Source: a virus
Lineage: Duplodnaviria; Heunggongvirae; Uroviricota; Caudoviricetes
DNA length: 17,205 nt
IMG/VR virus record: IMGVR_UViG_2548876701_000026
Direction: 5' to 3' (one strand)
The position numbers and the translations under genes were made by a program. Of the stretch, positions 1 through 17,205 are shown piece after piece. Numbering within the stretch: the stretch's first letter is position 1; every line of letters starts with the position of its first letter. A model generated the notes under the pieces. It was not told where the DNA came from and ran no database searches. It worked only from the letters and a program-made list of their open reading frames with translations.

Positions 1-201
1 TTAAGACTCCAGTTTCGCAAAGGCTCGACGTAACTGATTATTCAAATCACGGTCGACCAGCATCGCTATCAGCTCGTCTCGACTGTAGTAAGGGCGATCA
101 GGGTTATCGACTCCAAGTCTCAGCAGGGACAGGAGGTGACGGGTAGGCAGACCACGGTAGCGGAGAGTTGCACGACCAATAGGTGTGCGCGGGTCAATCA
201 T
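1..201 (-). CDS. hypothetical small protein (66 aa), translationally coupled to the upstream Rha-like gene
   Basis: Complete ORF: stop codon at 1-3, start at 201, overlapping the stop of the 203-931 gene. No recognisable motif. Confidence 0.45.
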   Translation of the reverse strand: MIDPRTPIGRATLRYRGLPTRHLLSLLRLGVDNPDRPYYSRDELIAMLVDRDLNNQLRRAFAKLES

Positions 202-202
202 C

Positions 203-931: not shown

Positions 932-1233
932 TTACGTGTACTCCTTTTGTTTGCACCCTGAAGTCGCACCCCCACTGACCTACTCAAGCCCCCACGTAAA
1001 GGGAGACCAGCAGGCAACAGGACGCAAACAGAATGACTTGAGGTAATTGGGGTTAGTGGTCTGCGATGACCATAGAGATGAAGGTTCGACAGCATGTCCG
1101 AGCGTGTGTGGTGATAGACTTAAGTCACGAGACCAAAGAACACAAAGGCTGACCAGAGGCTGGTGGCTAGCAAGCTAGCGTGGACCACGGTTTCTCGCTT
1201 GCCGTCTCTCAGGAGGTCAGAGGCGAGATATGG

Positions 1234-1255
1234 TCCCTATAGTGATAGTTTAGTC
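1234..1255 (-). promoter_or_regulatory. T7-class single-subunit RNA polymerase promoter-like element (copy 1), predicted start near 1237 reading leftward into the Rha gene
   Basis: Minus strand reads GACTAAACTATCACTATAGGGA; the core TCACTATAGGGA equals the -8..+4 core of the T7 consensus TAATACGACTCACTATAGGGAGA. Exact 21-nt direct repeat of 1793-1813. Confidence 0.5.
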
Positions 1256-1587
1256 AAACAGGAATGAACTTCGGAGAACCTGACGCGAAAGTGTTCAGTA
1301 CTTCCAGTTAGACCCGAAGTATGGAGAACCACATCATAGCGACCGTAGTATACTTCGGGCTGACAGGACTGGAGGCTGGACTTAAAGTTCTTCTTATTGG
1401 AATTGTGATAACACAATCCATAACAAGATGAACTCATGGTCTCCTCAAGCCTGCTGGTCAGGCTCAAAGCTCCAACCTCAGACACCACTGGTCTAACCTT
1501 TTTGAGTTTCCGCCTGTCCACAAATGGATGGCAGACCTCAGCAATGATGTCTTGGTTCTTCACAATCTCGCACACCGATGGTCGCAT
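1237..1587 (-). CDS. hypothetical protein (116 aa by ORF track; alternative start at 1437 with GAGGAG RBS gives 66 aa)
   Basis: ORF lies between promoter-like copies 2 and 1. Weak RBS at 1587, better RBS before the internal ATG at 1437. No motif recognised; could be spurious. Confidence 0.2.
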   Translation of the reverse strand: MRPSVCEIVKNQDIIAEVCHPFVDRRKLKKVRPVVSEVGALSLTSRLEETMSSSCYGLCYHNSNKKNFKSSLQSCQPEVYYGRYDVVLHTSGLTGSTEHFRVRFSEVHSCLTKLSL

Positions 1588-1790
1588 AGACGGATACTTC
1601 CGCTGCGGTCTGATGTTCTCCGCCTGTCAAAGGAGAGAGATTGCTACGTTAAAGGGAATGGTCTCAGGCCAAGGTGATTTAACACTAGGCTTATTGCGGA
1701 TGGTTTCCAATCGGTCCGCTACCGGAAGCCTGAGACTTAATGAATGTGTGGGTCGGTGGCTGTATTAAGCCCGGGGGGACTTAGGGTCTC

Positions 1791-1813
1791 TCCCCTATAG
1801 TGATAGTTTAGTC
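1791..1813 (-). promoter_or_regulatory. T7-class promoter-like element (copy 2), predicted start near 1795
   Basis: Minus strand reads GACTAAACTATCACTATAGGGGAGAGACC. Identical 21-mer to copy 1, and GGGGAGAGACC resembles the T7 initiating region GGGAGACC. Confidence 0.5.
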
Positions 1814-1820
1814 CCCCCCC
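1813..1820. repeat. C8/G8 homopolymer tract between promoter-like copies 3 and 2
   Basis: cccccccc at 1813-1820, read directly. Confidence 0.9.
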
Positions 1821-1839
1821 TTCCCCTATAGTGTGGGTT

Positions 1840-1840
<1 letters not shown>
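1821..1840 (-). promoter_or_regulatory. T7/SP6/K11-class promoter-like element (copy 3, divergent upstream half), immediately after the stop of the 1840-2499 gene
   Basis: Minus strand reads AAACCCACACTATAGGGGAA; CACACTATAGGG core. Confidence 0.35.
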
Positions 1841-4099
<2,259 letters not shown>

Positions 4100-4340
4100 G
4101 TACTGAGACCTTAGGTCTGCTCACTACTTCAACAAAGTTAGTCACAGTGTTGGTTACAGTGAGTAAAACTATCGGAAGGCTTTAAGCCGTATCCCTTAGG
4201 ATTCAGTAAGTTAGTAGACTTTAAGAATGGTCATGGAGCGGGCGAAGGGAATCGAGGAAACCCATAATAACCTGCTGTAAAATAAAGATTTTGTGATCAA
4301 TCATAGGTAACTGATTACGTGATAATAGAGGATCATTATC

Positions 4341-5561
4341 GTGTCGATCAAGAGCCAAGCATACTTATTTAAGAGAAAAGATGGGATCTGGATGTTTCAG
4401 ATTTTTGTTCCTAAATACTTACGTCATCTTTACCCTTACAAGTTGTGGAGAAAAAGCACATCTACACGAGATCTGAATGAGGCGAGAAGATTCAGAAACC
4501 ATCTATTATTAGAATGGGAGGAACTAAAGCGGAAACATAATCCTGATAACCCCGAAAGGAGGTTACAACAAGCTATTGAATCCTTACATTCAGAGGCAAG
4601 GGCCAATAAAAACACGCAAAGAGCCGTAAAACGCGGTTATGCATCGCCTTCCCTATGCTTAATACGTGACGAATACGCCGAATGCTACAGAGAGCGTCGT
4701 TCATACTCAACACTACAGAAATCAGCAAGGGCCGTTGAGCTATTTTTACAAAGCATTCAGAAAGATGATATTCATATTGAGAAAATAGGCAGACGGCTTG
4801 TAACAGTATTCTTAGATGACCAGAAGCAACGAGGAGCAGCCGATCAATCTCGTCAAAACTGGCTTACATGCTTAGGATCGCTCTATGAATTTGCTAAACG
4901 CCGTTATGACGGAATACCAGACAGTAACCCTTTTCACGGTCATAATCTCGAAGCACGTCGCACAATCGAGAGTTATCAACCGTTTACACCTGAACAAATG
5001 CAAAAGCTACTTGATGCAGCGGAGCCGGAGATCAGAAATATTATTTTAATGGGCTTGTTTTCAGGATGCAGATTAGACGAACTGGCAAGTCTGAAAAAGT
5101 CAGAGGTTGTAACTGTGGAAGGAATACGCTGTTTTTATATCAGCAAAAGTAAGACTAAAGCAGGGATCAGGCACGTTCCGATACATTCGAGACTATCGAT
5201 TATTGTCGATGAATATTTAAATCATAATTATGGTGAATATTTGTTCCCTCACTCGAACAAAGTAAAAAGAATCGACGGTAAGAAAGGCCCGTTCTATTCT
5301 CAAGCGTTCTCACGTTTACGTCGTAGCGTCTTGCCAATCGCTACAAATAGACAATGCTTTCACAGCTTGCGCGGGATGTTTATCACTTGTCTTGATCGTG
5401 CCGGAGTGCCTGAACAGCGGATCGGTGCCATTACCGGACATACAGAGCAGAGAGCTAAAACAGAAGCCTTTCGCACCTACTCACAAGGGGCAAGCATTCC
5501 AGAATTAGCTGAATATGTAGAATTAGTAAGATATGAATTAAATATTGATTTTAAGGCTTAA
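4341..5561 (+). CDS. int: tyrosine site-specific recombinase / phage integrase (406 aa, GTG start)
   Basis: R in GCRLDELASL, H-x-x-R in HSLRGMFITCL, GHTEQ...AFRTYSQ with the Tyr. N-terminus YLFKRKDGIWMFQIFVP parallels the other integrase. AGAGGA RBS 8 nt upstream of GTG. Confidence 0.85.
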   Translation: MSIKSQAYLFKRKDGIWMFQIFVPKYLRHLYPYKLWRKSTSTRDLNEARRFRNHLLLEWEELKRKHNPDNPERRLQQAIESLHSEARANKNTQRAVKRGYASPSLCLIRDEYAECYRERRSYSTLQKSARAVELFLQSIQKDDIHIEKIGRRLVTVFLDDQKQRGAADQSRQNWLTCLGSLYEFAKRRYDGIPDSNPFHGHNLEARRTIESYQPFTPEQMQKLLDAAEPEIRNIILMGLFSGCRLDELASLKKSEVVTVEGIRCFYISKSKTKAGIRHVPIHSRLSIIVDEYLNHNYGEYLFPHSNKVKRIDGKKGPFYSQAFSRLRRSVLPIATNRQCFHSLRGMFITCLDRAGVPEQRIGAITGHTEQRAKTEAFRTYSQGASIPELAEYVELVRYELNIDFKA

Positions 5562-5582
5562 AACAACGCCATAGGCGCAATA

Positions 5583-5611
5583 AAGAGGCTTCCTTGTAAT
5601 GGGAGCCTCTT
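5583..5611. terminator. bidirectional hairpin terminator between the convergent integrase (plus) and 613-aa gene (minus)
   Basis: aagaggcttcc / gggagcctctt form an 11-bp stem with one G-U wobble and a 7-nt loop, with T/A-rich flanks. Confidence 0.45.
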
Positions 5612-5668
5612 ATATGCTTAATTCCTTATAAGAGTGTTTTAAATGGTGATTAAACATTCTCTTTATCA

Positions 5669-7510
5669 TTAACTTGGTGCTTGCCCAGACAGAGCCGCCA
5701 ACGTGAAACTACGTTCAAAATCTTGTTGGATACTTCCCACTTTGTAATCGAGGTATGATCCAAGCTGACTACCATCAGGAGCGATATTCACATCAACCTT
5801 ACTTTCTGGCACGTTTACGACAATGCTTGGCGCATACGTCATAGATGGGGTAGTGTTCAGATCACGGCTAACGTTCTCTTTCAGGGATTGCACGTTATCG
5901 GACGGGCTTGAATAGTTCTGAATTGCAGTTCCGCCAGTCGTTGGCTTGTCTTCCGTGCCAGGGATAGGCGATAAGCCTAAAGCACTACGACCCCAATCAA
6001 CCATGCCGCCTACAAACGAATCCTTATAATACATACCGGACGAATCAAGGTTTTCATGTTTGTTCTCTGGATTTATATTCTGGTATGCAGCAGTAAGCCA
6101 CGATACAGCACCAGCAAAGGCGCTCATCATTTCAGCCGTTGAGCTTCCAAGTTCTTTAAACAGAGGATTGAGATCTTTCAACATTTGCGCCCACTCTTCA
6201 CCAGCCTGAGCGTCGAACTCTTCACCGAATCCCGTCATGATAGCTTTCTTACTACCTTCCCAGGCCATATTCATATTAGCCTGTACAGCTTGCAGACGTT
6301 CAGCAGCGTCAAGATCCGCTTGCGTATAGGTGGCATTGGCTTTTTGCATCTTAACGATGGTTTTATTTAGCTCTTCACCGTTACGACTGAAAGCACCACG
6401 GAAATATTGTAAATCATTTCCAAGGTCTTCAAGGATGTGACCCTGCTCCTGATCAGAGAGTCCACGGCGTTCTCCTTCTTTCACTACAGCGCCCAGGAAA
6501 CCTAATGGATCAGTCTGGAAACCTTTAATCTGTTCAGGACTCCAACCATATTTATTAAGGATGTTATCGACGGCACCATTACCGCCAGCCCAGCGACCTT
6601 TCTTAGCGTCCCATTTGGTATTCCCTACGGATTCACCTAAACGCTCTTGAACGTCTTTAAGGTTGTCTTGACGTTGGTCTACGGAACTATCGACACCGTG
6701 TTCTAAGCCGTACTGATTAAGTGCTAACAGGGCGTTAGTGTTTACGTTGACAGCCTTTGCCTTGCGGTTAGTGTCTGTGATCTTGCTTGCCTGATCGGTT
6801 ACGGTATTGAATATCGCAGCACCGCCGAGAGTGGCAGCAGTGAGAGCGGCACCGCCCACCATTGCACCTACACCACCGCCTATATGACCGCCTTTAAGCT
6901 GTTTAGCCATATGTGGATATTTACCGCCATCAGCCGCCACCTGGCGAGCTTTTACAGCAGCCGCACGGCGTTCTAACGTGATACGATCACGGATCAGGTG
7001 ATTCATCTTAGCCTGACTAATAGCGCCTTTCTCATACGCTGCCGTTTGTGCTTTGATGTATTGCAACGTTTTGTAGTATTGGGCGGAGTCCATACCGTCG
7101 CCCATACGCCCTTTCTTAATCCCTTCAAGCTGTCTGAAAGCTTGCTGGCGCTTAATCTCTGCTTTCTCTGCTATTGTCGCTTTAGCGCGGATCTGTTTAT
7201 CGGCAGCTATAGCGGCTTTAGCCTTCGCTTTAGCTTCTGCCTTTGCCACCTTATCAGCGTTCTTCTTATCGGTTTGAGCTTGCTTGTCTGACGCTTTGGC
7301 ATCAGTTTTAGCCTGTGCAGCTTTACGAGCCTTTACCAGATCATGAGCCTCGTCTATAGCTCGTTTAGCCTTCTTCCCTTTCAATGTTGGATTGGTTAGG
7401 TTTTCCATTTCTTTCTGAAATTTCTTCCCTGCGTCCCTTGCTTTCTGTAATGATGCAAAATCAACTTTAAATACAACCTTGTTTGTTAAGGTTGAGATGT
7501 TTAAATCCAT
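5669..7510 (-). CDS. large coiled-coil / glycine-zipper protein, tape-measure-like virion protein (613 aa)
   Basis: Lys/Ala/Glu-rich heptad-like N-terminal third (KVAKAEAKAKAKAAIAADKQIRAKA), hydrophobic Gly-zipper GGHIGGGVGAMVGGAALTAATLGGAAIF, long low-complexity C-terminus. AAGGA RBS upstream. Product assignment by composition only. Confidence 0.45.
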   Translation of the reverse strand: MDLNISTLTNKVVFKVDFASLQKARDAGKKFQKEMENLTNPTLKGKKAKRAIDEAHDLVKARKAAQAKTDAKASDKQAQTDKKNADKVAKAEAKAKAKAAIAADKQIRAKATIAEKAEIKRQQAFRQLEGIKKGRMGDGMDSAQYYKTLQYIKAQTAAYEKGAISQAKMNHLIRDRITLERRAAAVKARQVAADGGKYPHMAKQLKGGHIGGGVGAMVGGAALTAATLGGAAIFNTVTDQASKITDTNRKAKAVNVNTNALLALNQYGLEHGVDSSVDQRQDNLKDVQERLGESVGNTKWDAKKGRWAGGNGAVDNILNKYGWSPEQIKGFQTDPLGFLGAVVKEGERRGLSDQEQGHILEDLGNDLQYFRGAFSRNGEELNKTIVKMQKANATYTQADLDAAERLQAVQANMNMAWEGSKKAIMTGFGEEFDAQAGEEWAQMLKDLNPLFKELGSSTAEMMSAFAGAVSWLTAAYQNINPENKHENLDSSGMYYKDSFVGGMVDWGRSALGLSPIPGTEDKPTTGGTAIQNYSSPSDNVQSLKENVSRDLNTTPSMTYAPSIVVNVPESKVDVNIAPDGSQLGSYLDYKVGSIQQDFERSFTLAALSGQAPS

Positions 7511-7526
7511 AATATTTTCCTTTACC

Positions 7527-7562
7527 TTTTATTTGTTTTGTTTTGTTTTGTTTTGTTTTGTT
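7527..7562. repeat. pentanucleotide simple-sequence repeat (TTTTG)n on plus = (CAAAA)n on minus, about 6 units
   Basis: tttg followed by five perfect ttttg units at 7536-7560, read directly. Encodes the C-terminal KQNKTKQNK of the HTH gene and sits 18 nt upstream of the 613-aa start. Confidence 0.9.
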
Positions 7563-7735
7563 ACGTAGTATTGCACTGCTTCCATAGCTGAGCAGCCAGT
7601 AGTGAAGATTCTTTGACGTACAGCAGTATTAGAGATCCCTAAAAACTTACACACTTGAGAGATATTCAGAATATCTTCCGGTAAGGTGGAAACAGCTTTC
7701 AGGATCTCAACTGGATTGTTGTTTTGTTCGCTCAT
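7529..7735 (-). CDS. small helix-turn-helix DNA-binding protein (AlpA/excisionase-like), 68 aa from the ATG at 7735 (ORF track extends to 7786)
   Basis: ILNISQVCKFLGISNTAVRQRI is a classic HTH. The N-terminal 17 codons of the 7786 start overlap the upstream terminator hairpin, so the internal Met (MSEQ) is preferred. C-terminus is encoded by the (CAAAA)n repeat. Confidence 0.5.
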   Translation of the reverse strand: MSEQNNNPVEILKAVSTLPEDILNISQVCKFLGISNTAVRQRIFTTGCSAMEAVQYYVTKQNKTKQNK

Positions 7736-7778
7736 GATTTTTCTCTCACAATATTTTAATAGACGGTATAAACGAAAA

Positions 7779-7839
7779 AAGGGCAAAAGAGATTGTTTAC
7801 TGTATTTGCGCTACAGGTTTAATAATCCCTTTTGCCCTT
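7779..7839 (-). terminator. intrinsic terminator after the capsid-like gene (long-loop hairpin plus U6 on the minus transcript)
   Basis: aagggcaaaag (7779-7789) and cttttgccctt (7829-7839) are perfect inverted repeats; aaaaaa at 7773-7778 gives UUUUUU 3' of the stem on the minus strand. The 39-nt loop contains an inner ctgta/tacag hairpin. Confidence 0.4.
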
Positions 7840-7888
7840 ATTGCCTGTTTTATTTCCAGTCGCACAGGAAACGACTATTAACGCTTTA

Positions 7889-8917
7889 TTACGCTACTGT
7901 GATCTGTACAGTGAAGCCTACGCCGTGGTTTACAACCATCTGGCTATTCTCAGTAACTACGTTTACAGCGTCGTTACGTGCTGGGCTAAACGCATAGCTG
8001 TAATATTCAGCCGCGCCAGAATTCAGCAGGTCGAACGTTGAAGAAGGAGCGCCGAAAATGTTCTGATAGACGTTAGAGCCTTTAGCGAACTTCGGAACAG
8101 CAACCGCATCAGAAGTCATATGAGCCAGCAGCAGCGGATCAGTAACTTTAACGATATCGATGTTAGTCCCAGGAATAGTGAAGGTAGTCACACCTGGCAG
8201 CAGGGAGCGCACGCTATAAACGATGTTTGCGTCATCGGTAGGGCTTGCATACTGGAACGCGTTAACCATGCCAGCACTGTAACGGATAGCGTTGAAAGCA
8301 GCAGGTTTACAGAATACAACGATACGTTCTACAGCAGCCGCCTGGCTTTGTGCTTTAGTAATAACGTCTGTATGCATCTGATCGAATTGCTGGAACACCA
8401 TAGAAGGCGTGGTGCTTGATGCGTCGATGGTTGCAGTCATCGGAACAACACTAAACAGATCGCCCCACTGGATCAGCACATCATCAGTTTTAGGGGTGTA
8501 AGTGCGACCAGAGAACAGGGAAGCAGCCAGCACGCTTTCTTTAGTACGCTGGAAAGCAATGTGGTGCTTAGCAACATATTCCGCGTAGATATCTGTCAGA
8601 GTTTCTTCAACGGTAGCGCCTGGTTTACGTTTGCCTTGCACGTCTTGCGGCTTAATCATATCTTCACGCAGGAAGTAGGGGATCTCTACTAAAAATTCTT
8701 TACCCTGTTCACGTTTAGTCACGTTATGTTCAGAAGAGAAACGAGAGGTTTCTTTGTTGAACAGAGATTCGTTAGTTTCCACCAGTTGGCTAACAGCCAC
8801 TTTATGAGAACTCACACCTACCGGATCAGTAAAGTCGAGAGAAGTTAACAGGAAGTTGCGAGAGTCGTGCAGACTAAACAGCGGAGCCAGATCGACGGAT
8901 TCATTACCAATAATCAT
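7889..8917 (-). CDS. putative major capsid protein, lambda gpE-like (342 aa)
   Basis: Size and synteny (about 120-aa decoration-like gene immediately upstream, terminator downstream). Loose colinear resemblance to lambda gpE as I recall it (segments IAFQRTKESVLAASLFSGRTYT and ERIVVFCKPAAFNAIRYS). AAAGGAA RBS. Not verified by search. Confidence 0.45.
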   Translation of the reverse strand: MIIGNESVDLAPLFSLHDSRNFLLTSLDFTDPVGVSSHKVAVSQLVETNESLFNKETSRFSSEHNVTKREQGKEFLVEIPYFLREDMIKPQDVQGKRKPGATVEETLTDIYAEYVAKHHIAFQRTKESVLAASLFSGRTYTPKTDDVLIQWGDLFSVVPMTATIDASSTTPSMVFQQFDQMHTDVITKAQSQAAAVERIVVFCKPAAFNAIRYSAGMVNAFQYASPTDDANIVYSVRSLLPGVTTFTIPGTNIDIVKVTDPLLLAHMTSDAVAVPKFAKGSNVYQNIFGAPSSTFDLLNSGAAEYYSYAFSPARNDAVNVVTENSQMVVNHGVGFTVQITVA

Positions 8918-8935
8918 TATTTTTATTCCTTTATA

Positions 8936-9307
8936 TTAAGATGTGAATACAGTGTTAAAACCAGCCATCTGGAAACCTTTTGCAGCCAGGGCAGCAATAG
9001 CAGCTTCTTTCACAGCGCCTTCAACATTCAGAGCATCGGACTTGATGCAAACCAGTCCGGCATTGCTACGCAGCACGTTAACGGTTTTAGCGTCGCCAGC
9101 GGATACCGCATCAGACACAACTACAAGAACATCGCCGCCGCTTACATATTCAGCGCCGTCACTGGTAATCAGATCGCCGCATTCAACATCAACCGCCAGA
9201 TCAACGGTAAAAGATTGCACACAACCGAACTCATCAGTTGCATATGAAACGATATCGGTAAATGATTTGCGAACTGGAAACAGATCGCTCATATTAATAA
9301 TAGCCAT
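8936..9307 (-). CDS. putative head decoration protein (gpD-like), 123 aa
   Basis: Position immediately upstream of the capsid-like gene; small Ala/Val/Gly/Asp-rich protein with a C-terminal AAIAALAAKG segment. AAGGAAA RBS. Confidence 0.35.
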   Translation of the reverse strand: MAIINMSDLFPVRKSFTDIVSYATDEFGCVQSFTVDLAVDVECGDLITSDGAEYVSGGDVLVVVSDAVSAGDAKTVNVLRSNAGLVCIKSDALNVEGAVKEAAIAALAAKGFQMAGFNTVFTS

Positions 9308-9309
9308 AA

Positions 9310-9525
9310 TTAATAGTTTCCTTTTTTGGATTGTTTGATTTGTTCTGCTTTTGCTTTAATCAGATCCTGCATAGTAGGTTTCTGTTCATCAGCAGACTTA
9401 AAAAGCTTATCACAATGTTTTTTCAATTCTGTGGGAGTGATCCCCAGCATATAAGCCGTAGCATTGAATGTTTCATCAGTGATAACCAATTCTTCGTTAC
9501 CATTCTTTAGAATGAGATTTTGCAT
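9310..9525 (-). CDS. hypothetical small protein (71 aa), first gene of the capsid-like cluster
   Basis: ORF with stop abutting the start of the decoration-like gene. No motif recognised. Confidence 0.4.
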   Translation of the reverse strand: MQNLILKNGNEELVITDETFNATAYMLGITPTELKKHCDKLFKSADEQKPTMQDLIKAKAEQIKQSKKGNY

Positions 9526-9578
9526 TATTGCTTTACCTTTATTCCTAACAGTCTTGTTTAGTGCTGATAAAAATAAAA

Positions 9579-9599
9579 CCGGAAGGGGAAAGCTTCCGG
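9579..9599 (-). terminator. intrinsic terminator (minus-strand orientation)
   Basis: ccggaag / cttccgg form a 7-bp GC-rich stem with a 7-nt loop; on the minus strand it is followed by UUUUAUUUUUAU (plus 9565-9577). Confidence 0.55.
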
Positions 9600-10115
9600 C
9601 TTTATGAATACAACATTTGAAGGATGTTATAGAGTGTTACTAAATCGCAGTTTATATGAACTTAAAGAGGAGGACATATAAGAATAAGATTGCTTATTGT
9701 TATATACCCTTGAGGGGTGAATAACAGGCTTACAGGGAGTAGGCGCTTAGGAGGTCGCCCCCTTTGGAGAGGAATCTATAAACCTGTTATTCGTGCGACG
9801 GCTAATCGCTGTCTTTCACAATGTGGATGCATCGATCAGACTTTCAGGAATCACCTATTAACTTTCAAACCTTTTGGATTCTCATTTTAATAGGAGGCGG
9901 TGCCGAGATGATTTCGGGGATCATCCACGCTTTCGCGTTCTAAGATTGGCACCTTAATAAACACCAACAAACAAAAACATATTCAGCTTTAAGCTTAGTA
10001 GAAAACTGTTGTCAAGAAACAGATATACACCGTTATTTGTTTATACGGGGTTTATAGACACTGTAAACAGTGTTTTTAGAAAGTGTTTCATGCTTCGCAG
10101 TTGGTTAAAAAGATG

Positions 10116-10137
10116 AGGGGCCAAATCCGTAGCCCCT
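10116..10137 (-). terminator. candidate intrinsic terminator downstream of the small-gene operon
   Basis: aggggc / gcccct form a 6-bp stem with a 10-nt loop; the minus strand then reads CAUCUUUUUAACC. Confidence 0.35.
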
Positions 10138-10403
10138 GCATTCTTAAGACACAATTTTGATAAAGCAATAAGGAAAATAAAATGAAACTATTAACGAGGG
10201 AAACAATTTCTAAAAAATCACTGTAAAGGGAAAGCGGGATAGGTTAGATAGGGCGCGCCCCCTTGAGGTCTACCCCGCTTTCGTGTAGGATTAGAATCGG
10301 GAGAAGGATTAACGCCAGCTAACACATATTTTCGATTCAAAACCCCACATTTATTATTATAACATTTCTGTTAGTAAAAGTCAATAGGTAAATGCAATTA
10401 TTT

Positions 10404-10613
10404 TCAACTTTTTTCGGTTGTCAGTTCCCACTCACCAAATACGCAATTACCATCTAAAACGATTGTTTGATCGTTACCGTTATCATCGGTTACGTGCATC
10501 AGGCGGGTGTAAGTGTCGAGTAAGCCGGTATACACTTTACCTACTGTGAAACAATTACCCGCTTTCCCTTCTTCTGTGAGCGCCAGAAGGCGCACACGTT
10601 TAGTTTTTGTCAT
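10404..10613 (-). CDS. hypothetical small protein (69 aa), last gene of the operon
   Basis: Start overlaps the stop of the upstream gene (TAATG). No motif recognised. Confidence 0.45.
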   Translation of the reverse strand: MTKTKRVRLLALTEEGKAGNCFTVGKVYTGLLDTYTRLMHVTDDNGNDQTIVLDGNCVFGEWELTTEKS

Positions 10614-12158: not shown

Positions 12159-12824
12159 TTAAAATGGTATTGAGTCATAGATTTCACTTTCTTTTCTCAG
12201 GGCTATCATCAGTGCATTAAAAGCATCATCTTCAAGAATTATCCTCTTCGAGGTCAGTGCACGTTTTATAAAATTTTCTGTTTCTTCTTGCATAGGCTTT
12301 TGGCTGTCTATGGAAATAAGCCATGTAAAAAGATCAGATTGTTCCGTGATTTCTGCCTGTGTTTCCTGCTCAATAGAGTGTGTCGCTTCTAACGGTTCCT
12401 GTGTTTCAGGTGCAGGCTGTTCTACGTTTACAGAGGTTTTTACGTCTTCCGGTGGTGTGATGTGTGCATCTGTAAAGGGTAATGCTTTATAGAGTGATGT
12501 TTGCCCGTCCCGTGCCTCTACAGAAAGAACACCCATATCAATAAACATATTTATAATATTACGCACCTGACGATCACTAACCATTCCAATATTAGCTAAT
12601 GTTTTTTGATTGGCGTAACATTCTTGCCCTTGTTCATTGAACCCAGCTACGTAACTGTAGATTTCAACGGCTGGAAGTGTCGCGGTGTATTCCTTACCTG
12701 ACGGTGAGAACCACTTTTTAAACATCTTCAGCCATTGTTCAACTACTACATATGTTTGTTTACTATCTTTCTTATTGAGGCATTGCGCTTTTGCTTCGGC
12801 AATTGTTTTGGTGTTTTGGTTCAT
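12159..12824 (-). CDS. winged-helix DNA-binding protein resembling phage/plasmid replication initiator or replisome-organizer N-terminal domains (221 aa)
   Basis: Segment YSYVAGFNEQGQECYANQKTLANIGMVSDRQVRNIINMFIDMGVL fits the pattern (Y..N...G.CY.SQ.TLA...G.S...V.R.I..L...G.I) seen in Rep/replisome-organizer HTH domains; acidic linker follows. AAAGGAGG RBS. Confidence 0.5.
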   Translation of the reverse strand: MNQNTKTIAEAKAQCLNKKDSKQTYVVVEQWLKMFKKWFSPSGKEYTATLPAVEIYSYVAGFNEQGQECYANQKTLANIGMVSDRQVRNIINMFIDMGVLSVEARDGQTSLYKALPFTDAHITPPEDVKTSVNVEQPAPETQEPLEATHSIEQETQAEITEQSDLFTWLISIDSQKPMQEETENFIKRALTSKRIILEDDAFNALMIALRKESEIYDSIPF

Positions 12825-12948
12825 TTAGTTCCTCCTTTGTAAGGACTGTAATTAGTAATTCATTAACAAGTTTTGGAATTGATTTCCCTTCTGCCTTTGC
12901 ACGATTTAACAACGCGTTATAAGTTGCAGAATCAAAATTAATATTCAT
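12772..12948 (-). CDS. small DNA-binding-like protein, possibly ribbon-helix-helix (58 aa; below the ORF-track cutoff)
   Basis: ATG at 12948 with AAGGAG RBS at 8-nt spacing. Hand translation MNINFDSATYNALLNRAKAEGKSIPKLVNELLITVLTKEEL... shows a strand-helix-helix pattern. Overlaps the start of the Rep-like gene by about 50 nt. Confidence 0.4.
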   Translation of the reverse strand: MNINFDSATYNALLNRAKAEGKSIPKLVNELLITVLTKEELNEPKHQNNCRSKSAMPQ

Positions 12949-13154: not shown

Positions 13155-13769
13155 AAAAAACTCCTTATTTAGATAAAAGAAAAACACACCTTGCAGCCTG
13201 ACGGCTCAAAGTGCAGTGTTCTGTGATTTGATTATTTAGATGGAGAGAGATGTTTCTCCCCTCCCTACTTACAATACTACATAACGGCGGCTTTGTCAAC
13301 CCTCTCTTATAAAAAACTTGATCATTTTCAATTTCTTATAATTTTTCTTAGCTTTTTGTGCTGCCTACTCTGGTACAATTCTTCCCTGTTGCCTAAAACG
13401 CTCTCAATCGCACTCTGACGGGGGTTTTGATAAAAACAATACATTCCCTTATGTAGAGGTTGTTTATCTCGTCAGAGGCTTATTTAAGGGGCTTATTTTT
13501 GATTTATCAGATGATGGAAAGATGGTGGATAGATAAACTCTGATTTCAGACATCTTATAAAATACCTGTAAAGCTCCTCAGAAGCTCTATAACGAGCTAA
13601 TCTATTACCGCTAAGTGTTTCCCTACCTTATATACGTTTAGCTCGCCTACGGCTTGATTTAAGCGGTAGAAACTTATTTAACCTTCAACTACTAAAACCA
13701 TTCTTTCTTTTTTGTTTGTTGTTGGTTGTTGTCTGTGTCTATGTGCTAACATCGCTAACGCGTAGCACA

Positions 13770-14035
13770 CAAGGTTATTGCACTCGTCAGAGTATTGCAC
13801 AATAGATTTTCTCTTAAATAGATTGATGATCGTTAGATTGGCGTAAGCCTCATCAATGGAACTATTGAAGCGCACAGCGCATAGACACTAACAACCATTC
13901 GCTTACGCTCAGGTTATTGCACAAGTAAATTTCAATCGTTAGATGGTAGTTAGTTAATTATCGTTCTGCGCACAGCGCAAGACTATTAGCCATACGCAAG
14001 CCGTAGGCTATTTGCACATAGTAGATTACATATTC
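13770..14035. repeat. degenerate tandem repeats of about 100 bp carrying recurring TTGCACA, CGTTAGAT and CGCACAGCGCA motifs
   Basis: cgcacagcgca at 13871-13881 and 13969-13979; cgttagat at 13831 and 13937; aggttattgcac at 13772 and 13911. Confidence 0.5.
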
Positions 14036-14918
14036 GTTGTGAGCGGAAAGCGAACATAGATCAGCTAACTACTAACAAAAAACAAAAAACAAAAACTATC
14101 TGTTATGACAAGCATCAGTCTAACTTGTGCAAGGTTCTGGCGAATGCCAATAGATTAAGGGATAGTCGAAGACTCCCTAACGGGTATCCCTATAATTATT
14201 CTTTAAAAGATAAAAGAATTTATAAAAGATAGTTTAATTGTAGTTTAATTATAGTATTGTAGGAACTCATTTCCTGGGTAGGTAGGAAACCCGCACTATA
14301 CGGTAAAAAGTGCTTGCATGTCAACTTATATTATGTTAATTGCGGCTTTAGATCGTCTAAGTGATTGTTAAAAGTAACTTTTAAAGTTAACAATTGATCA
14401 ATCAAACTTAAAAATTCCCGGCTTTAGAAAAGCATAAGTATTGTGCACACTGGTAAGTGTCTTGCACAGAAAAAGGTGTAAAAAATGTCTAAAGCCCTTT
14501 AGATAAAAATGATACCTTTATACATGCGCTAATAGCGCGCATAACAATAACCTACTAACAACTAACTAAAAAGTAAGAAGATGTTGTTATGATTAGTGTA
14601 TCGCTCAACGCTCACATCTATCTCTGATCTATAAATTGGTAACTGTCTAACAACAACAAACAACTATTACATGCAAAACAGCCTTACGGCTGCATAGAGA
14701 TGATTGGCTAACCTTCGGTTGCTACGCATAGCCATATCTATGAGAAGATAAAAGAGATTTAAAGGTTAGTTTGTTGTTGATCTAACTAACATTCGCTATA
14801 CGCTCATACAATCTACATTACACATTAACTATCAAACTACAATCTAACGATATATAGAATCTATATCCACTCATTATCATTCGTGCAATGATCACATTGA
14901 TAGTTCGCTATACGCTCA
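13898..14918 (+). repeat. four same-orientation iteron-like direct repeats TCGCT-N2/3-ACGCTCA; candidate origin or recombinase-binding region
   Basis: Copies at 13898-13911, 14601-14614, 14792-14806 and 14904-14918, inside a 2.25-kb AT-rich region with no credible ORF. Confidence 0.5.
14074..14094. repeat. (AACAAAA)3 heptanucleotide tandem repeat
   Basis: Read directly. Confidence 0.85.
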
Positions 14919-15440
14919 CCTCTATTATGTGCAATGGCTTTTCAGGCAACGCGTTAGCGTATTCTTGCGAATGCCTGATCTCCAAAGCCGGAATTAAACA
15001 GCAAGAATATCTCGTGTAAATCATAGAATATTCATAGTTTATCCCTATGTAATTCCATACTAAAAATTCAATGAAAAGTAGCTTAAAAGAGCAATGTTAG
15101 CTTTCTTCACTTTTACATTATCATCAGCAAAGCCTTATGTAATGCGGCATATAGCGCATCACTGCAAAATTGTTGCTCAATAAACGTTCTATCATTTATT
15201 GAACAAGTTTCCTTTAATGCAACAAAAAATTATTTTTTCAAAATAAACACACTATTTAATAGCTTGCTAATTTTACCAAAATGTAACTACATGATTCTCA
15301 TGCAAGACGTGTAGTGATAAAGCAGGCTAAATCACCACACTAAAAACCTTCGAATTTCGTAGTGAAAAAAGTCCTTTACACACCTAATCAACACGATCAA
15401 TAATCACTACACACAAATCAACACAGAAGGAATAAAGAAA

Positions 15441-15992
15441 ATGGCTAATATTGGATACATTAGGGTATCGACTGTGCAACAAAACACAGACCGTCAATTA
15501 GCTGGAGTAGCTCTTGATAAAGTCTTTGAAGATAAAGCGTCAGGCAAGAATACCCAGCGCCCACAGTTTGAGGCAATGATGAACTATGTGCGGGAAGGTG
15601 ATGTTTTGCATGTTCACAGTATTGATCGACTTTGCCGTAATACAGCCGACCTACTGGCAACGGTTGAGCAATTAACAGAGCGCGGCGTGTCTGTGCATTT
15701 CCATAAAGAAGACTTTAAGACAGGGAAGAACTCTCCCGCAGGGAATATGATGCTCACAGTGCTTGCAGCAGTGGCACAAATGGAACGTGAAATGATGCTT
15801 GAGCGCCAGCGTGAGGGGATCGCCGCAGCTAAGGCCGCTGGACGTATAGCAAAACGTGGTAATGGAAAAGCAATTGATCGAGCGGGAATTGCTGCCGCTC
15901 TCGCGAATGGTGGATCAATTCGGAGCGTAGCAAAAGATTTCAGTGTCAGCACACAAACGGTGCAACGTATCAAGAAAGAGCAGGAAGCGTAA
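15441..15992 (+). CDS. small serine recombinase of the resolvase/invertase family (183 aa)
   Basis: N-terminus MANIGYIRVSTVQQNTDRQ with the catalytic Ser in the GY(I/A)RVS-T motif; DRLCRN; C-terminal HTH GSIRSVAKDFSVSTQTVQRI. Compares well with Hin/Gin/TnpR as I recall them. AAGGA RBS. Confidence 0.85.
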   Translation: MANIGYIRVSTVQQNTDRQLAGVALDKVFEDKASGKNTQRPQFEAMMNYVREGDVLHVHSIDRLCRNTADLLATVEQLTERGVSVHFHKEDFKTGKNSPAGNMMLTVLAAVAQMEREMMLERQREGIAAAKAAGRIAKRGNGKAIDRAGIAAALANGGSIRSVAKDFSVSTQTVQRIKKEQEA

Positions 15993-16227
15993 TGCCTCCT
16001 GATATTTCAGAATTGTCGCTGCATGGACCTGACGGCGCTGATCTTCTCGTTAAGCGATGATCACGTATGCGCCGATTTCAGAGAAAAAGACAGTAACTGA
16101 ACTCACTATGAAGGCTAAACGTATCTTTACACTTGATGGAAACGTCCAAAAAACAACCTAACCCCAAAACCCAACAAATTGCAAAATATTGTTTTTAAAA
16201 GAAAATCAAATCTACATCAAATATTGG

Positions 16228-16332: not shown

Positions 16333-16500
16333 ATGCATTTATCTTCAAAACATCTTAGCACTATCCGCTTTCTCGTTATTGCTTCATTCGTTGTAGCTAT
16401 CAGTTACCGACTTTTTGTTGCCTCCAATGACGAAATGAATCCTCTTGCTATTATTGCCCATTCAATAGCGACAATAGTTAGACGGTTTGAAAAACCGTAA
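16333..16500 (+). CDS. small hydrophobic (single transmembrane helix) protein, 55 aa; not in the ORF track
   Basis: AGGGGG RBS 4 nt upstream of the ATG. Hand translation MHLSSKHLSTIRFLVIASFVVAISYRLFVASNDEMNPLAIIAHSIATIVRRFEKP. The RBS can pair with CCCCCT at 16305-16310. Confidence 0.35.
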   Translation: MHLSSKHLSTIRFLVIASFVVAISYRLFVASNDEMNPLAIIAHSIATIVRRFEKP

Positions 16501-16644
16501 TACAATAAACATCCGAAATAATTTCGAAAGCAACTCATTTTTACTCTGCAAACAATCAGAAAAGACTTAATTTTGCTAAGTTAATGCATTAATCTAAAAA
16601 CGCTTTAAATCAATACATAACCATTATCTCTTGGGATTATTTAC

Positions 16645-16965
16645 ATGCGCAAAAGTTTAATGCTGTTACTTGCTTCAACATTGATTATTTCTGGATGTGC
16701 AACAAAAAAACAACTCGTTCCAACTGGTGGAAGCAAATCAGACGGCACAGTTAGGATGAGTTATTCTTACGGTATGTTTGAAAGTCCTGTTGTAGATCCA
16801 CAACAAGGCATGAATGCAGCCAAAGCGCGTTGTGCCGCTTGGGGATATTCAGGAGCCGAGCCTTTTGGTGGATTCACTTCTCAATGTTCACAACCTTCTT
16901 CATCTGGTTGTATGCAAACACTTGTGACTATCGAATATCAATGCACTGGCGATATTAAGAAGTAA
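16645..16965 (+). CDS. lipoprotein (106 aa)
   Basis: Signal peptide with lipobox LIISGC (Cys at residue 18), followed by a Cys-containing mature domain. Confidence 0.65.
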   Translation: MRKSLMLLLASTLIISGCATKKQLVPTGGSKSDGTVRMSYSYGMFESPVVDPQQGMNAAKARCAAWGYSGAEPFGGFTSQCSQPSSSGCMQTLVTIEYQCTGDIKK

Positions 16966-16970
16966 TAATT

Positions 16971-16987
16971 AGGGGCTTCCAGCCCCT
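16971..16987. terminator. bidirectional hairpin terminator between convergent genes
   Basis: aggggct-tcc-agcccct: perfect 7-bp stem with a 3-nt loop. Confidence 0.5.
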
Positions 16988-16998
16988 TCTATAACCAT

Positions 16999-17205
16999 TC
17001 ATGGAACAGGGACAACCGAAATCACTTTAAACCCTGAAACAGCCGTTACTCCATTAGATGGAGAATTAAATCTCACAGTATCTTTTCTTACTGCATCATG
17101 AATTTCATCTTTTGTTGGTTCATGCTCTGAATGGAATAAAACCTCTTCCATTCTAATTTGATCACCGTCTCTATGCTCATAAGTAATCTTGTAGCTAACA
17201 GTCAT
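16999..17205 (-). CDS. hypothetical small protein (68 aa); start codon is the last three bases of the window
   Basis: ORF with ATG at 17203-17205; convergent with the lipoprotein gene. No motif recognised. Confidence 0.45.
   Translation of the reverse strand: MTVSYKITYEHRDGDQIRMEEVLFHSEHEPTKDEIHDAVRKDTVRFNSPSNGVTAVSGFKVISVVPVP

What the first reader, a model, noticed from the sequence alone, without database searches (positions are those of the whole stretch)
5669..9525. Minimal virion-like module without portal, protease or terminase: satellite-like capsid hijacker?
Between the right-hand integrase and the regulatory spacer the only large genes are a lambda D/E-like decoration and capsid pair, a small HTH regulator, and a 613-aa tape-measure-like protein, closed off by terminators at 7779-7839 and 5583-5611. 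A complete phage would need portal, scaffold/protease, terminase and tail genes here. Combined with its own replication module and iteron region further right, this looks like a satellite or phage-plasmid-like element that encodes its own shell proteins and borrows the rest from a helper.
Basis: inference. Interest (0 to 1): 0.8.

Follow-up and report, generated by a model that had tools for sequence, protein, structure and literature searches.

The report
Capsid-and-tape-measure satellite of phi92-like phages
This is a 13.5-kb mobile island in E. coli that carries its own copies of a virus shell protein, a shell-decoration protein and a tail-ruler protein but none of the other virion parts. 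It appears to be an undescribed parasite ("satellite") of the large lytic phi92/phAPEC8-type coliphages, which in turn seem to have evolved a weapon against it.

Summary
Window 5669-9525 (- strand) encodes a 71-aa protein, a gpD-fold decoration protein (123 aa), an HK97-fold major capsid protein (342 aa, Pfam Phage_cap_E), a small HTH protein and a full-length tape-measure homologue (613 aa). There is no portal, protease, terminase or other tail gene.

The element is bounded by 22-nt repeats of the tRNA-Gly 3' end (window 4234 to about 17708, 13.47 kb), so nothing is hidden outside the window.

New findings:
- Every phage link points to one group, the virulent ~150-kb Stephanstirmvirinae myoviruses (Phapecoctavirus, Justusliebigvirus/phi92). 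This holds for the capsid, tape-measure and 69-aa proteins and for three DNA patches of 80-96% identity.
- One patch (15996-16078) copies the sequence across the right boundary of the phage's short direct terminal repeat. A second element lineage copies phi92's boundary. This is a likely packaging-signal mimic.
- Phage muut encodes a chimeric protein. It has two DNA-binding domains 90-100% identical in DNA to two Rep alleles of this family, fused to a T5orf172-type nuclease. This parallels ICP1 Odn versus PLE.

The family occurs in 345 of 5426 complete E. coli genomes and in other Enterobacteriaceae, under purifying selection. I found no description in the searchable literature. Packaging itself is untested.

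The parts
4234..4255 (+). Left attachment-site repeat, identical to the 3' end of tRNA-Gly (glyU). It marks the left end of the 13.47-kb element.
   Evidence: The exact 22-mer is found once in the window, with 0 expected by chance. The same 22-mer lies at the tRNA-Gly 3' end 13,474 bp to the right in strain EH2252.
4341..5561 (+). Tyrosine integrase (406 aa; DUF6538 + Phage_integrase).
   Evidence: Pfam E 1.1e-12 and phrog_1 E 1.5e-38. It keeps this position next to the structural module in E. coli, Klebsiella and Citrobacter relatives.
5583..5611 (-). Terminator-like hairpin after the tape-measure gene.
   Evidence: RNA fold of 5575-5668(-): -23.2 kcal/mol, z -3.5.
5669..7510 (-). Tape-measure protein homologue (613 aa).
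   Evidence: phrog_16051 E 7.9e-65. It is 30% identical over residues 165-611 to the anhysbys TMP gp254, including the C-terminal LSGQ motif. For the TMP allele shared by the APEC O1 and MLI104K2 elements, dN/dS is 0.075.
7532..7562 (.). Pentanucleotide repeat (TTTGT)6 at the 3' end of the HTH gene, 20 nt before the tape-measure start codon. Its length varies between strains.
   Evidence: TRF: period 5, 6.2 copies, 100% match. A one-unit difference here is the only indel between the window and strain EH2252 over 13.2 kb.
7529..7735 (-). Small HTH protein (68 aa), AlpA/excisionase-like, always found between the capsid and tape-measure genes.
   Evidence: Weak HTH hits only: Pfam HTH_8/Sigma70_r4_2 E 0.088; phrog_2907 excisionase E 0.0086. 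A 60-76-aa ORF sits at the same position in the E. coli, Klebsiella and Pantoea relatives and in one of the two Citrobacter loci.
7779..7839 (-). Strong hairpin plus U run between the capsid gene and the HTH/TMP genes. It may be an internal attenuator.
   Evidence: 16-bp stem, -26.3 kcal/mol, z -5.4.
7889..8917 (-). Major capsid protein (342 aa), HK97 fold, Phage_cap_E family.
   Evidence: dN/dS 0.12-0.13 among E. coli variants.
8936..9307 (-). Head decoration protein (123 aa), gpD-like fold.
9310..9525 (-). First gene of the module (71 aa), function unknown.
   Evidence: A 66-74-aa ORF is conserved at this position but its sequence diverges fast. No family match.
9573..9605 (-). Terminator hairpin 48 nt upstream of the module's first gene. 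No sigma-70-like promoter lies between it and the gene.
   Evidence: 13-bp stem, z -6.2. A hairpin plus T run is visible by eye at the equivalent place in the Klebsiella, Citrobacter and Pantoea sequences; those three were not folded.
10356..10384 (-). Best sigma-70-like promoter of the leftward strand (TTGACT-17-TGnTATAAT). It feeds the 880-bp spacer, which holds a further terminator at 10116-10137.
   Evidence: sequence.
10404..10613 (-). 69-aa ORF with homologues in many Phapecoctavirus genomes.
   Evidence: phrog_27862 E 5.9e-15. tblastn gives 45% identity to a hypothetical protein in about 60 phage records.
12159..12824 (-). Rep-like winged-HTH protein (221 aa), the presumed replication initiator.
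   Evidence: Pfam HTH_36 at E 1.1e-4 (22.3 bits, just below the 25-bit gathering score); PHROG replication-initiator families down to E 6.8e-6. Codons 30-117 are 91% identical in DNA to the second DNA-binding domain of phage muut gp094.
12772..12948 (-). 58-aa ORF, ribbon-helix-helix-like by eye, not annotated in RefSeq.
   Evidence: 96% DNA identity and 90% amino-acid identity to phage PaulScherrer bas60_0101.
13188..15440 (.). 2.25-kb AT-rich non-coding region with many short direct and inverted repeats. It is the presumed origin and control region.
   Evidence: Repeat families such as TTCGCTATACGCTCA x3. Promoter-like sites at 14295-14324 and 13271-13299. A long non-coding gap sits at the same place in all relatives.
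15441..15992 (+). Small serine recombinase (183 aa). Klebsiella, Citrobacter and Pantoea relatives carry a ~190-aa tyrosine recombinase here instead.
   Evidence: Pfam Resolvase E 5.2e-39.
15996..16078 (+). Copy of the sequence spanning the right boundary of the helper phage's direct terminal repeat. It is a candidate packaging signal.
   Evidence: 80% identity to phAPEC8-like phages. In WPEC4 the match covers positions 272-357 of a junction whose exact terminal repeat is 1-328. The four-way alignment shares TGATATTT-N40-TC.CGTTAAGC.
16333..17205 (.). Cargo end of the element: a 55-aa ORF, a YecR-family lipoprotein (16645-16965, +) and an 85-aa ORF that runs off the window. tRNA-Gly follows about 500 bp further on.
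   Evidence: RefSeq annotation of the identical locus.

Best explanation
The finding is the hijack module of a 13.47-kb integrative phage satellite, a member of an apparently undescribed family in Enterobacteriaceae. Its helpers are virulent Stephanstirmvirinae myoviruses: Phapecoctavirus for this allele, Justusliebigvirus/phi92 for others.

Proposed cycle:
1. (Shown) The element sits at the 3' end of tRNA-Gly between 22-nt repeats. It carries a tyrosine integrase, a Rep-like wHTH protein, a long repeat-rich non-coding region and a small recombinase.
2. (Inferred) Helper infection triggers excision and replication.
3. (Inferred) Transcription reads through the terminators that insulate the module.
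4. (Inferred, by analogy with cf-PICI and SaPIbov5 Ccm) The satellite's own capsid and decoration proteins build a shell sized for about 13 kb. They do so on the helper's portal, scaffold and protease, and the shell excludes the 150-kb helper genome.
5. (Inferred from mimicry in two lineages) The helper terminase recognises the satellite's copy of the terminal-repeat boundary at 16000-16055.
6. (Inferred; purpose unknown) Helper tails are used, but they are built around the satellite's tape measure and, in most relatives, its tail-tube initiator. The purpose may be compatibility with DNA delivery or sabotage of helper tails.

The cost to the phage is implied by a phage-encoded chimeric nuclease that carries the satellite Rep DNA-binding domains.
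For: **Element boundaries and content**
- att repeats and the tRNA define the ends.
- No portal, protease, terminase, sheath or tube family is present.

**Genes are functional, not decaying**
- dN/dS is 0.12-0.13 for the capsid gene, 0.14-0.28 for decoration and 0.075 for the tape measure.
- Synteny is conserved in E. coli, Klebsiella, Citrobacter and Pantoea.
- The module occurs in 345 of 5426 complete E. coli genomes, with up to two copies per genome, and at two different tRNA sites (glyU and thrW) among the loci examined.

**Helper assignment**
- The best capsid-protein phage hits are Stephanstirmvirinae (with Pseudomonas myoviruses also matched); the tape-measure, Dit-like and 69-aa hits are almost all Stephanstirmvirinae.
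- The decoration-capsid and tape-measure-Dit gene orders match the phage.
- Three DNA patches of 80-96% identity to these phages, and to no other phage group, show recent recombination in co-infected cells.
- Tape-measure alleles track helper genera. The window allele is nearest Phapecoctavirus; the APEC O1 allele is 46% identical to Justusliebigvirus.

**Packaging mimic**
- Window 15996-16078 spans the right end of the 328-bp terminal repeat of WPEC4.
- The APEC O1 element carries 46 bp at 95.7% identity to phi92 318-363, where DTR-L is annotated 1-343.
- The alignment pairs each element with its own phage genus.
- The same motif occurs in the Klebsiella and MLI104K2 elements, always beside the small recombinase.
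- Stephanstirmvirinae have short direct terminal repeats (PMC12210895, PMC12695924).

**Arms race**
- In muut gp094, nt 1-369 are 97.6-100% identical to the Rep N-terminus of the MLI104K2-type element.
- nt 372-632 are 90-98% identical to the window-type Rep.
- The C-terminus matches MUG113 (above the gathering score) and T5orf172 (weak, below it), and has no chromosomal match.
- This is the architecture of ICP1 Odn, which cuts the PLE origin (PMC8263062).
Against: - No experiment shows induction, packaging, small capsids or transfer.
- The capsid protein is only about 25% identical to the proposed helper's, so compatibility with the helper portal and scaffold is unproven.
- Only the right terminal-repeat boundary is copied; no left-boundary match was found. 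The motif was not found in the Citrobacter or Pantoea relatives.
- The shared patch could serve another function, for example a regulatory site near the phage's left end.
- No reason is established for a satellite to carry a tape measure.
- No small terminase, Ppi/Rpp-like redirector or recognised helper sensor was identified.
- IMG/VR hits come mostly from isolate-genome UViG identifiers that look like proviruses. They are not evidence of particles.
Confidence: 0.6

Rival explanations
1. The element is mainly an anti-phage defence island. Its capsid, decoration and tape-measure homologues act as dominant-negative 'poison subunits' that wreck Stephanstirmvirinae head and tail assembly. The element itself is not packaged and spreads by other means.
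For: - Structural homologues without the rest of a virion.
- A phage counter-weapon implies a cost to the phage.
- Tail-assembly interference is a known strategy of satellites and prophages (Tai systems, PMC11364771).
- The tape measure diverges fast between lineages, as expected in an arms race.
Against: - It does not explain the conserved terminal-repeat-boundary copy in two lineages matched to two phage genera.
- It does not explain the conserved 11-14-kb size, or why a full capsid plus decoration pair is kept under strong purifying selection.
- No PADLOC defence family matches.
- No conjugation or mobilisation genes exist to explain spread across genera and tRNA sites.
- Defence and satellite life styles are not exclusive, as PLE shows.
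Confidence: 0.2
2. It is a satellite, but of an unsampled (possibly temperate) helper whose capsid protein is much closer than 25%. The Stephanstirmvirinae links would then reflect only occasional gene exchange.
For: Low capsid (25%) and tape-measure (30%) identity to the sampled phages. Satellites often exploit several helpers.
Against: - In a 50,697-genome phage collection, the tape-measure, Dit-like and 69-aa matches and all three DNA patches are almost exclusively to Stephanstirmvirinae records; only the capsid protein also matches Pseudomonas myoviruses.
- The DNA patches are 80-100% identical, and one includes the phage genome terminus.
- The counter-nuclease sits in these phages.
Confidence: 0.1
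3. It is a decaying remnant of a prophage, with no present function.
For: Phage-like genes next to an integrase at a tRNA site, beside another degraded island.
Against: - The same minimal gene set and order recur in at least four genera with intact ORFs and intact att repeats.
- dN/dS is about 0.1.
- The nearest phage relatives are virulent 150-kb phages. They carry no integrase, so this is not their prophage.
Confidence: 0.04

Closest known systems
PLE of Vibrio cholerae and its helper ICP1 (with the phage counter-measure Odn)
   Same: - A chromosomal island that parasitises a virulent myovirus.
- Its own Rep with a specific origin.
- The ICP1 capsid protein is among the closest folds to this element's capsid protein (8g1r).
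- The phage carries a chimeric T5orf172-type nuclease whose DNA-binding domain is copied from the satellite Rep (PMC8263062).
   Different: - PLE has no capsid-protein, decoration or tape-measure gene. It remodels ICP1's own coat protein with the external scaffold TcaP.
- No sequence homology between the elements.
- PLE uses a large serine integrase.
- Here the phage nuclease carries two captured domains in tandem at 90-100% DNA identity, against 42% amino-acid identity for Odn.
Capsid-forming PICIs (cf-PICI)
   Same: Integrative satellites of Enterobacteria that encode their own HK97-fold capsid protein and take the tail from a helper (PMC10085698).
   Different: - cf-PICIs encode a complete head and packaging set: portal, protease, head-tail connectors, terminase/HNH.
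- Tail genes are 'forbidden' components in the SatelliteFinder model (PMC10085698).
- This element has only shell plus decoration, and it does carry tail genes (tape measure, often Dit-like).
- Its proposed helpers are virulent.
SaPIbov5 Ccm (capsid-protein homologue used for size redirection)
   Same: A satellite-encoded homologue of the helper's major capsid protein used to make satellite-sized capsids. That Ccm is a capsid-protein homologue is from my own knowledge (Carpena 2016; Hawkins 2021). Ccm is listed among size-redirection factors in PMC12409344.
   Different: - Gram-positive SaPI with temperate cos helpers.
- No decoration or tape-measure gene.
- SaPIs carry a primase-replicase and packaging-redirection genes.
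P4 / P4-like satellites
   Same: An 11-14-kb integrative or plasmid-capable element of Enterobacteria at tRNA sites. It depends on a myovirus helper. The size would fit a small (T=4-like) capsid.
   Different: - P4 uses Sid/Psu external scaffolds on P2's capsid protein, the alpha primase-helicase, delta/ogr, and the helper's cos site. None of these families was detected here.
- P4's helper is temperate.
PICMI (Vibrionaceae) and the Streptomyces Flayer/Mulch satellites
   Same: Small satellites of virulent phages (PMC10803314). The Streptomyces satellites encode their own encapsidation genes (PMC10690885 abstract).
   Different: - PICMIs encode no capsid-remodelling or structural genes.
- By their abstract the Streptomyces satellites lack key replication genes, the opposite partition of functions to the one seen here.
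Archaeal pSSVx / SRCE elements
   Same: A plasmid-type replication module combined with an incomplete virion module (capsid protein and/or ATPase) borrowed from the helper lineage (bioRxiv 10.1101/2025.02.15.638363).
   Different: Spindle-shaped archaeal viruses with unrelated proteins and no tails.

Membership tests
Phage_cap_E / HK97-fold major capsid proteins | Full-length match to PF03864 above the gathering score, and an HK97 fold. | tested here: met
   45.4 bits against a cut-off of 22.9, residues 25-341. Profile E 2.9e-15 to solved phi92 gp124. Foldseek E 6.5e-17 to the phiTE capsid protein, plus lambda gpE.
gpD-like head decoration proteins | gpD-type fold, with the gene immediately upstream of the capsid-protein gene. 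| tested here: met
Stephanstirmvirinae tape-measure proteins (phrog_16051) | Homology over most of the length to the protein encoded between the tail chaperone and the tube initiator. | tested here: met
   phrog_16051 E 7.9e-65. BLASTP E 1e-58 over residues 165-611 against 204-658. Phage gene context.
cf-PICI | Own portal, prohead protease, head-tail connectors and terminase/HNH in addition to the capsid protein; no tail genes. | tested here: not met
   None of these families appears in any ORF. A tail gene (tape measure) is present. Definition from PMC10085698.
PICI (Gram-negative) | Integrase, AlpA, primase-replicase, capsid-morphogenesis gene, small terminase or Ppi/Rpp; no structural genes. 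| tested here: not met
   Only the integrase is clear. The HTH is at best weakly AlpA-like. There is no primase-replicase and no terS.
P4-like satellites | Seven core components: integrase, Psu, Sid, delta, alpha primase-helicase, AlpA, epsilon. | tested here: not met
   No Psu, Sid, delta or alpha hits. True P4-like elements lie next to relatives as separate islands.
Phage satellite (functional class) | Induced by, and packaged and transferred with, the virion machinery of a helper phage. | not testable with these tools
   Only indirect evidence: terminal-repeat-boundary mimicry, helper-matched structural genes, and a phage counter-nuclease.
Odn-like origin-directed nuclease (phage muut gp094, outside the window) | T5orf172/GIY-YIG-type nuclease domain fused to a DNA-binding domain copied from the satellite's Rep; cleaves the satellite origin. 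| tested here: inconclusive
   The domain architecture is met. Two HTH_36 domains are 90-100% identical in DNA to two Rep alleles. MUG113 scores 22.5 bits against a cut-off of 22.3; T5orf172 E 0.029. Cleavage is not testable here.
Phage-plasmid | A complete phage genome that also replicates as a plasmid. | tested here: not met
   The virion gene set is incomplete. There are no PLSDB matches. A Pantoea relative looks plasmid-like (ParA, 14.1-kb contig) but carries the same minimal module.

The most novel reading that the evidence does not exclude
E. coli and its relatives harbour a widespread, so far unnamed satellite family that is the enterobacterial counterpart of the PLE-ICP1 system. It parasitises virulent phi92/phAPEC8-type phages by a strategy not described for any satellite. 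It replaces the capsid shell, the decoration protein, and the tail's tape measure and tube initiator with its own versions. It uses the helper's portal, terminase and remaining tail, and it copies the helper's terminal-repeat boundary as a packaging signal. The phages respond with a nuclease that carries two captured satellite Rep DNA-binding domains in tandem.
Probability: 0.5. Interest if true: 0.9.

Novelty: new variant of a known kind. Interest (0 to 1): 0.82.

Why it matters
- **A tractable model.** It would give a satellite-versus-virulent-phage arms race in E. coli, with culturable helpers already in public collections (the BASEL phage PaulScherrer/Bas60, phi92, phAPEC8).
- **A new division of labour.** The satellite brings shell, decoration and tape measure, and the helper brings the rest. 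This bears on what determines capsid size and why a tape measure would need to match the genome it delivers.
- **Phage therapy.** phi92/phAPEC8-like phages are therapy candidates. About 6% of complete E. coli genomes, including O26:H11 EHEC and APEC O1, carry the element, which may lower phage yield or be spread by treatment.
- **A detection gap.** Current satellite finders treat tail genes as forbidden (PMC10085698), so this class would be systematically missed.

Tried and rejected
- **123-aa versus phage decoration protein.** BLASTP and hhalign gave nothing. An exhaustive HMMER search found only 10 cluster representatives, none named as a phage protein. Fold comparison resolved the question.
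- **71-aa as a mini-scaffold.** No similarity to the phage's 371-aa protein upstream of its decoration gene. Function left open.
- **Rfam.** No known RNA family anywhere in the window at E <= 0.1.
- **A shared late promoter.** The phage structural genes show ordinary sigma-70-like promoters, and nothing comparable lies in front of the module.
- **Left terminal-repeat boundary and general similarity between non-coding regions.** Only an 18-nt CAACAAC-type run and a modest excess of shared k-mers were found. Not used as evidence.
- **PLSDB.** No plasmid copies.
- **IMG/VR.** 24 loci, mostly from isolate-genome UViG identifiers that look like proviruses. Uninformative about particles.
- **Metagenome contig of element size (12.3 kb).** It includes flanking genes and is not evidence of a free form.
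- **PADLOC and NCBIfam.** No defence or named family for the module proteins.
- **Terminal-repeat motif in the Citrobacter and Pantoea relatives.** Not found.
- **Literature.** Ten full-text searches combined satellite with Phapecoctavirus, Stephanstirmvirinae, Justusliebigvirus, phi92, tape measure and capsid. None found a description of this family.
- **Prophage-remnant and autonomous-phage readings.** Rejected for the reasons given under rivals.

Full report
**What is at the coordinates.** The window comes from an E. coli chromosome and is 99.8-100% identical to O26:H11 and related strains. The finding's span, 5669-9525, is exactly five co-oriented genes on the - strand:
- a 71-aa ORF (9310-9525);
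- a 123-aa ORF (8936-9307);
- a 342-aa ORF (7889-8917);
- a small HTH ORF (7529-7735);
- a 613-aa ORF (5669-7510).

The 342-aa protein is a Phage_cap_E capsid protein over its whole length. It is homologous to the solved phi92 capsid protein gp124. Its predicted structure matches HK97-fold capsid proteins, including lambda gpE.

The 613-aa protein is a tape-measure homologue (phrog_16051 E 7.9e-65). It aligns with nearly the whole 662-aa tape measure of phage anhysbys, whose gene lies between the tail chaperone and a Dit-like gene.

**Boundaries.** The 3'-terminal 22 nt of tRNA-Gly (glyU) recur at window 4234-4255. They also occur at the tRNA itself, about 500 bp beyond the window's right end, 13,474 bp away. 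A third, degenerate copy further left bounds an older island that holds the other integrase, a DUF4145 protein, a Rha regulator and an IS66. The element of interest is thus 13.47 kb and lies almost entirely inside the window. None of its ORFs matches a portal, protease, terminase, sheath or tube family.

**A conserved family, not debris.** The capsid and decoration proteins have homologues in E. coli, E. albertii, Klebsiella, Citrobacter, Enterobacter, Cronobacter, Kluyvera, Pluralibacter, Dryocola, Serratia and Pantoea. The gene order is the same in every locus examined:
- small recombinase;
- 1-3 kb of non-coding DNA;
- small ORFs and a Rep-like wHTH protein;
- spacer;
- 66-74-aa ORF, decoration, capsid, an HTH ORF in nearly every locus, and tape measure;
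- often a Dit-like protein;
- integrase.

The Pantoea version is a 14.1-kb contig with ParA, no large integrase and no chromosomal flanks. Its gene order wraps around the contig ends, which is consistent with a circular episome. In complete E. coli genomes the module occurs in 345 of 5426, always on chromosomes, with up to two per genome. One copy is next to thrW in APEC O1. Capsid dN/dS is 0.12-0.13, decoration 0.14-0.28, and tape measure 0.075 within an allele.

**The helper lineage.** In a collection of 50,697 phage genomes, the best capsid-protein hits are Stephanstirmvirinae (about 25% identity, full length), though many Pseudomonas myoviruses also match. The tape-measure hits (about 30%) are almost all to virulent ~150-kb Stephanstirmvirinae myoviruses. 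A 69-aa ORF (10404-10613) has homologues in about 60 phage records, nearly all Phapecoctavirus-type. In these phages decoration precedes capsid and the tape measure precedes a Dit-like 'tail tube initiator', as in the elements. The decoration proteins end alike (...VFTS*), and the tape measures share the C-terminal LSGQ motif.

Tape-measure alleles differ sharply between element lineages. They are 28% identical where the capsid proteins are 76% identical. They also track different phage genera. The window allele is nearest Phapecoctavirus. The APEC O1 tape-measure-plus-Dit block is 46% identical to Justusliebigvirus.

More tellingly, three short DNA patches of the element are 80-96% identical to these phages and to no other phage group. 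That level of identity requires recent recombination inside co-infected cells.

**A terminal-repeat boundary copy.** One patch (15996-16078) lies in a non-coding stretch just after the serine recombinase gene. In phage WPEC4 the matching sequence spans the right end of an exact 328-bp terminal repeat. Stephanstirmvirinae are reported to have short direct terminal repeats, for example 342 bp in BME3 by PhageTerm (PMC12210895, PMC12695924).

Independently, the APEC O1-type element carries 46 bp at 95.7% identity to phi92 positions 318-363. The phi92 left terminal repeat is annotated 1-343. The four sequences align and share TGATATTT-N40-TC.CGTTAAGC, with the repeat boundary inside CGTTA|AGC. Each element resembles 'its' phage genus more than it resembles the other element. 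The motif recurs in the Klebsiella and MLI104K2 elements at the same place, beside the small recombinase, whether that enzyme is of the serine or the tyrosine type.

In phages with short terminal repeats, the repeat boundaries are where terminase cuts concatemers. This is established for T7-type packaging and inferred here. The patch is therefore the best candidate for the satellite's packaging signal. Only the right boundary is copied, and the Citrobacter and Pantoea relatives lack a recognisable copy.

**A phage counter-measure.** The second patch lies in the Rep-like gene. Phage muut gp094 (331 aa) has two HTH_36 domains and a C-terminal MUG113/T5orf172-type nuclease-like domain. Its second HTH domain is 75-90% identical in protein, and 91% in DNA, to residues 30-117 of the window's Rep. 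Its first 369 nt are 97.6-100% identical to the Rep N-terminus of another variant of the same element family, in strain MLI104K2. There the gene sits in the canonical element next to the capsid, tape-measure and Dit genes. The nuclease part has no chromosomal match.

This is the architecture of ICP1's origin-directed nuclease Odn. Odn has a T5orf172 domain fused to a copy of the PLE RepA DNA-binding domain, and it cuts the PLE origin (PMC8263062). Only a few phages carry the gene (muut, inny, Mt1B1_P17, BI-EHEC). That is as expected for an accessory weapon. Its existence argues that the elements harm these phages.

**How it most likely works.** Shown:
- integration at tRNA sites with intact repeats;
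- a self-contained integrase, Rep and non-coding module;
- a capsid, decoration and tape-measure (plus or minus Dit) module homologous to one phage subfamily and under selection;
- DNA exchange with those phages.

Inferred:
- Helper infection induces excision and replication.
- The structural operon is switched on by read-through. It is preceded by a strong terminator with no promoter-like site after it, and by eye the Klebsiella, Citrobacter and Pantoea sequences show a hairpin plus T run at the equivalent place.
- The satellite's capsid and decoration proteins assemble on the helper's portal and scaffold into a shell that fits about 13 kb and cannot hold 150 kb.
- The helper terminase uses the boundary mimic.
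- Helper tails are built around the satellite tape measure.
- The internal hairpin after the capsid gene would lower tape-measure expression relative to capsid, as virion stoichiometry demands.
- The small recombinase next to the packaging site could cyclise incoming DNA or resolve multimers. This is speculation.

Why a satellite needs its own tape measure is unexplained. Possible reasons are matched DNA delivery, escape from entry blocks, or sabotage of helper tails.

**Comparison and novelty.** The element works like PLE (virulent helper, Odn-type counter-attack). It works like cf-PICI and SaPIbov5 Ccm in having its own capsid-protein homologue. It fails the defining gene sets of P4-like, PICI and cf-PICI satellites, and it is unrelated in sequence to PLE. 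SatelliteFinder treats tail genes as forbidden in its PICI and cf-PICI models (PMC10085698), which would hide this family. Ten full-text searches found no description. I cannot exclude work outside the searchable library. I rate it a new variant of a known kind: a new phage-satellite family with a new partition of structural genes.

**Verdict.** Confidence that this is a helper-packaged satellite of Stephanstirmvirinae is 0.6. The main rival is an assembly-poisoning defence island that is not itself packaged (0.2), and the two are not mutually exclusive.

Noticed in passing
Phage muut NC_052657.1 81258-82256 (L008 2634-3632, - strand): The phage gene gp094 is a chimera. It joins two DNA-binding domains, 90-100% identical in DNA to two different Rep alleles of this element family, to a MUG113/T5orf172-type nuclease-like domain. 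This is an apparent analogue of ICP1 Odn. The upstream small ORF gp095 is also 99% identical to the element ORF upstream of Rep.
   Followed up: yes
window 7532-7562: (TTTGT)6 pentanucleotide repeat at the 3' end of the small HTH gene, 20 nt before the tape-measure start codon. A one-unit change is the only indel against strain EH2252 across 13.2 kb, and several near-identical copies in other strains differ in length by five bases. Each step shifts the HTH stop codon onto or past the tape-measure ribosome-binding site. This may be a phase-variable switch.
   Followed up: partly
window 9526-10403: 880-bp spacer between the early/Rep genes and the structural module. It holds a near-consensus extended -10 promoter (10356-10384, - strand) followed by two terminator hairpins (10116-10137 and 9573-9605) and no convincing ORF. 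It may be a non-coding RNA or an antitermination leader. There is no Rfam match.
   Followed up: partly
window 13188-15440: 2.25-kb AT-rich non-coding region full of short direct and inverted repeats. It includes an 18-nt run (13714-13731) identical to one in the phage non-coding region just upstream of the terminal repeat. A long non-coding gap is conserved at this place in all relatives.
   Followed up: partly
window 12772-12948 (- strand): Unannotated 58-aa ORF, ribbon-helix-helix-like by eye, overlapping the Rep start. It is 96% identical in DNA to bas60_0101 of phage PaulScherrer (Justusliebigvirus).
   Followed up: partly
window 1-4233: A second, older island sits to the left. It has a 535-aa integrase (2492-4099, -), a DUF4145 protein (1840-2499) and a Rha-family regulator (203-931). 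In strain EH2252 an IS66 lies further left, and a degenerate third copy of the tRNA-Gly repeat bounds the island next to the ETT2 type III secretion cluster.
   Followed up: partly
L011 (Pantoea sp. B623, JANUXM010000001.1, 14,112 bp): This relative forms a whole contig with ParA, a small tyrosine recombinase and the same decoration/capsid/tape-measure/Dit module, but no large integrase and no chromosomal flanks. The gene order wraps around the contig ends. It looks like a circular, plasmid-like form of the family.
   Followed up: partly
window 5669-7510 versus L017 7855-9684: The tape-measure alleles of two E. coli element lineages are only 28% identical although their capsid proteins are 76% identical. 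The window lineage and the Klebsiella relatives examined have lost the Dit-like gene that follows the tape measure in the APEC O1, MLI104K2, Citrobacter and Pantoea elements.
   Followed up: partly
window 16333-17205: Cargo next to the tRNA: a 55-aa hydrophobic ORF, a YecR-family lipoprotein whose best phage hit is a Synechococcus phage (53% identity), and an 85-aa ORF. Their functions are unknown and no defence family matched.
   Followed up: no
L006/L007 15544-21032 and L018 1-3315: Genuine P4-like satellites (AlpA, DUF5375, Zn-ribbon primase/DUF927, ogr/delta) lie in tandem with these elements in the Citrobacter and E. coli MLI104K2 loci. The same loci therefore stack different satellite families.
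   Followed up: no
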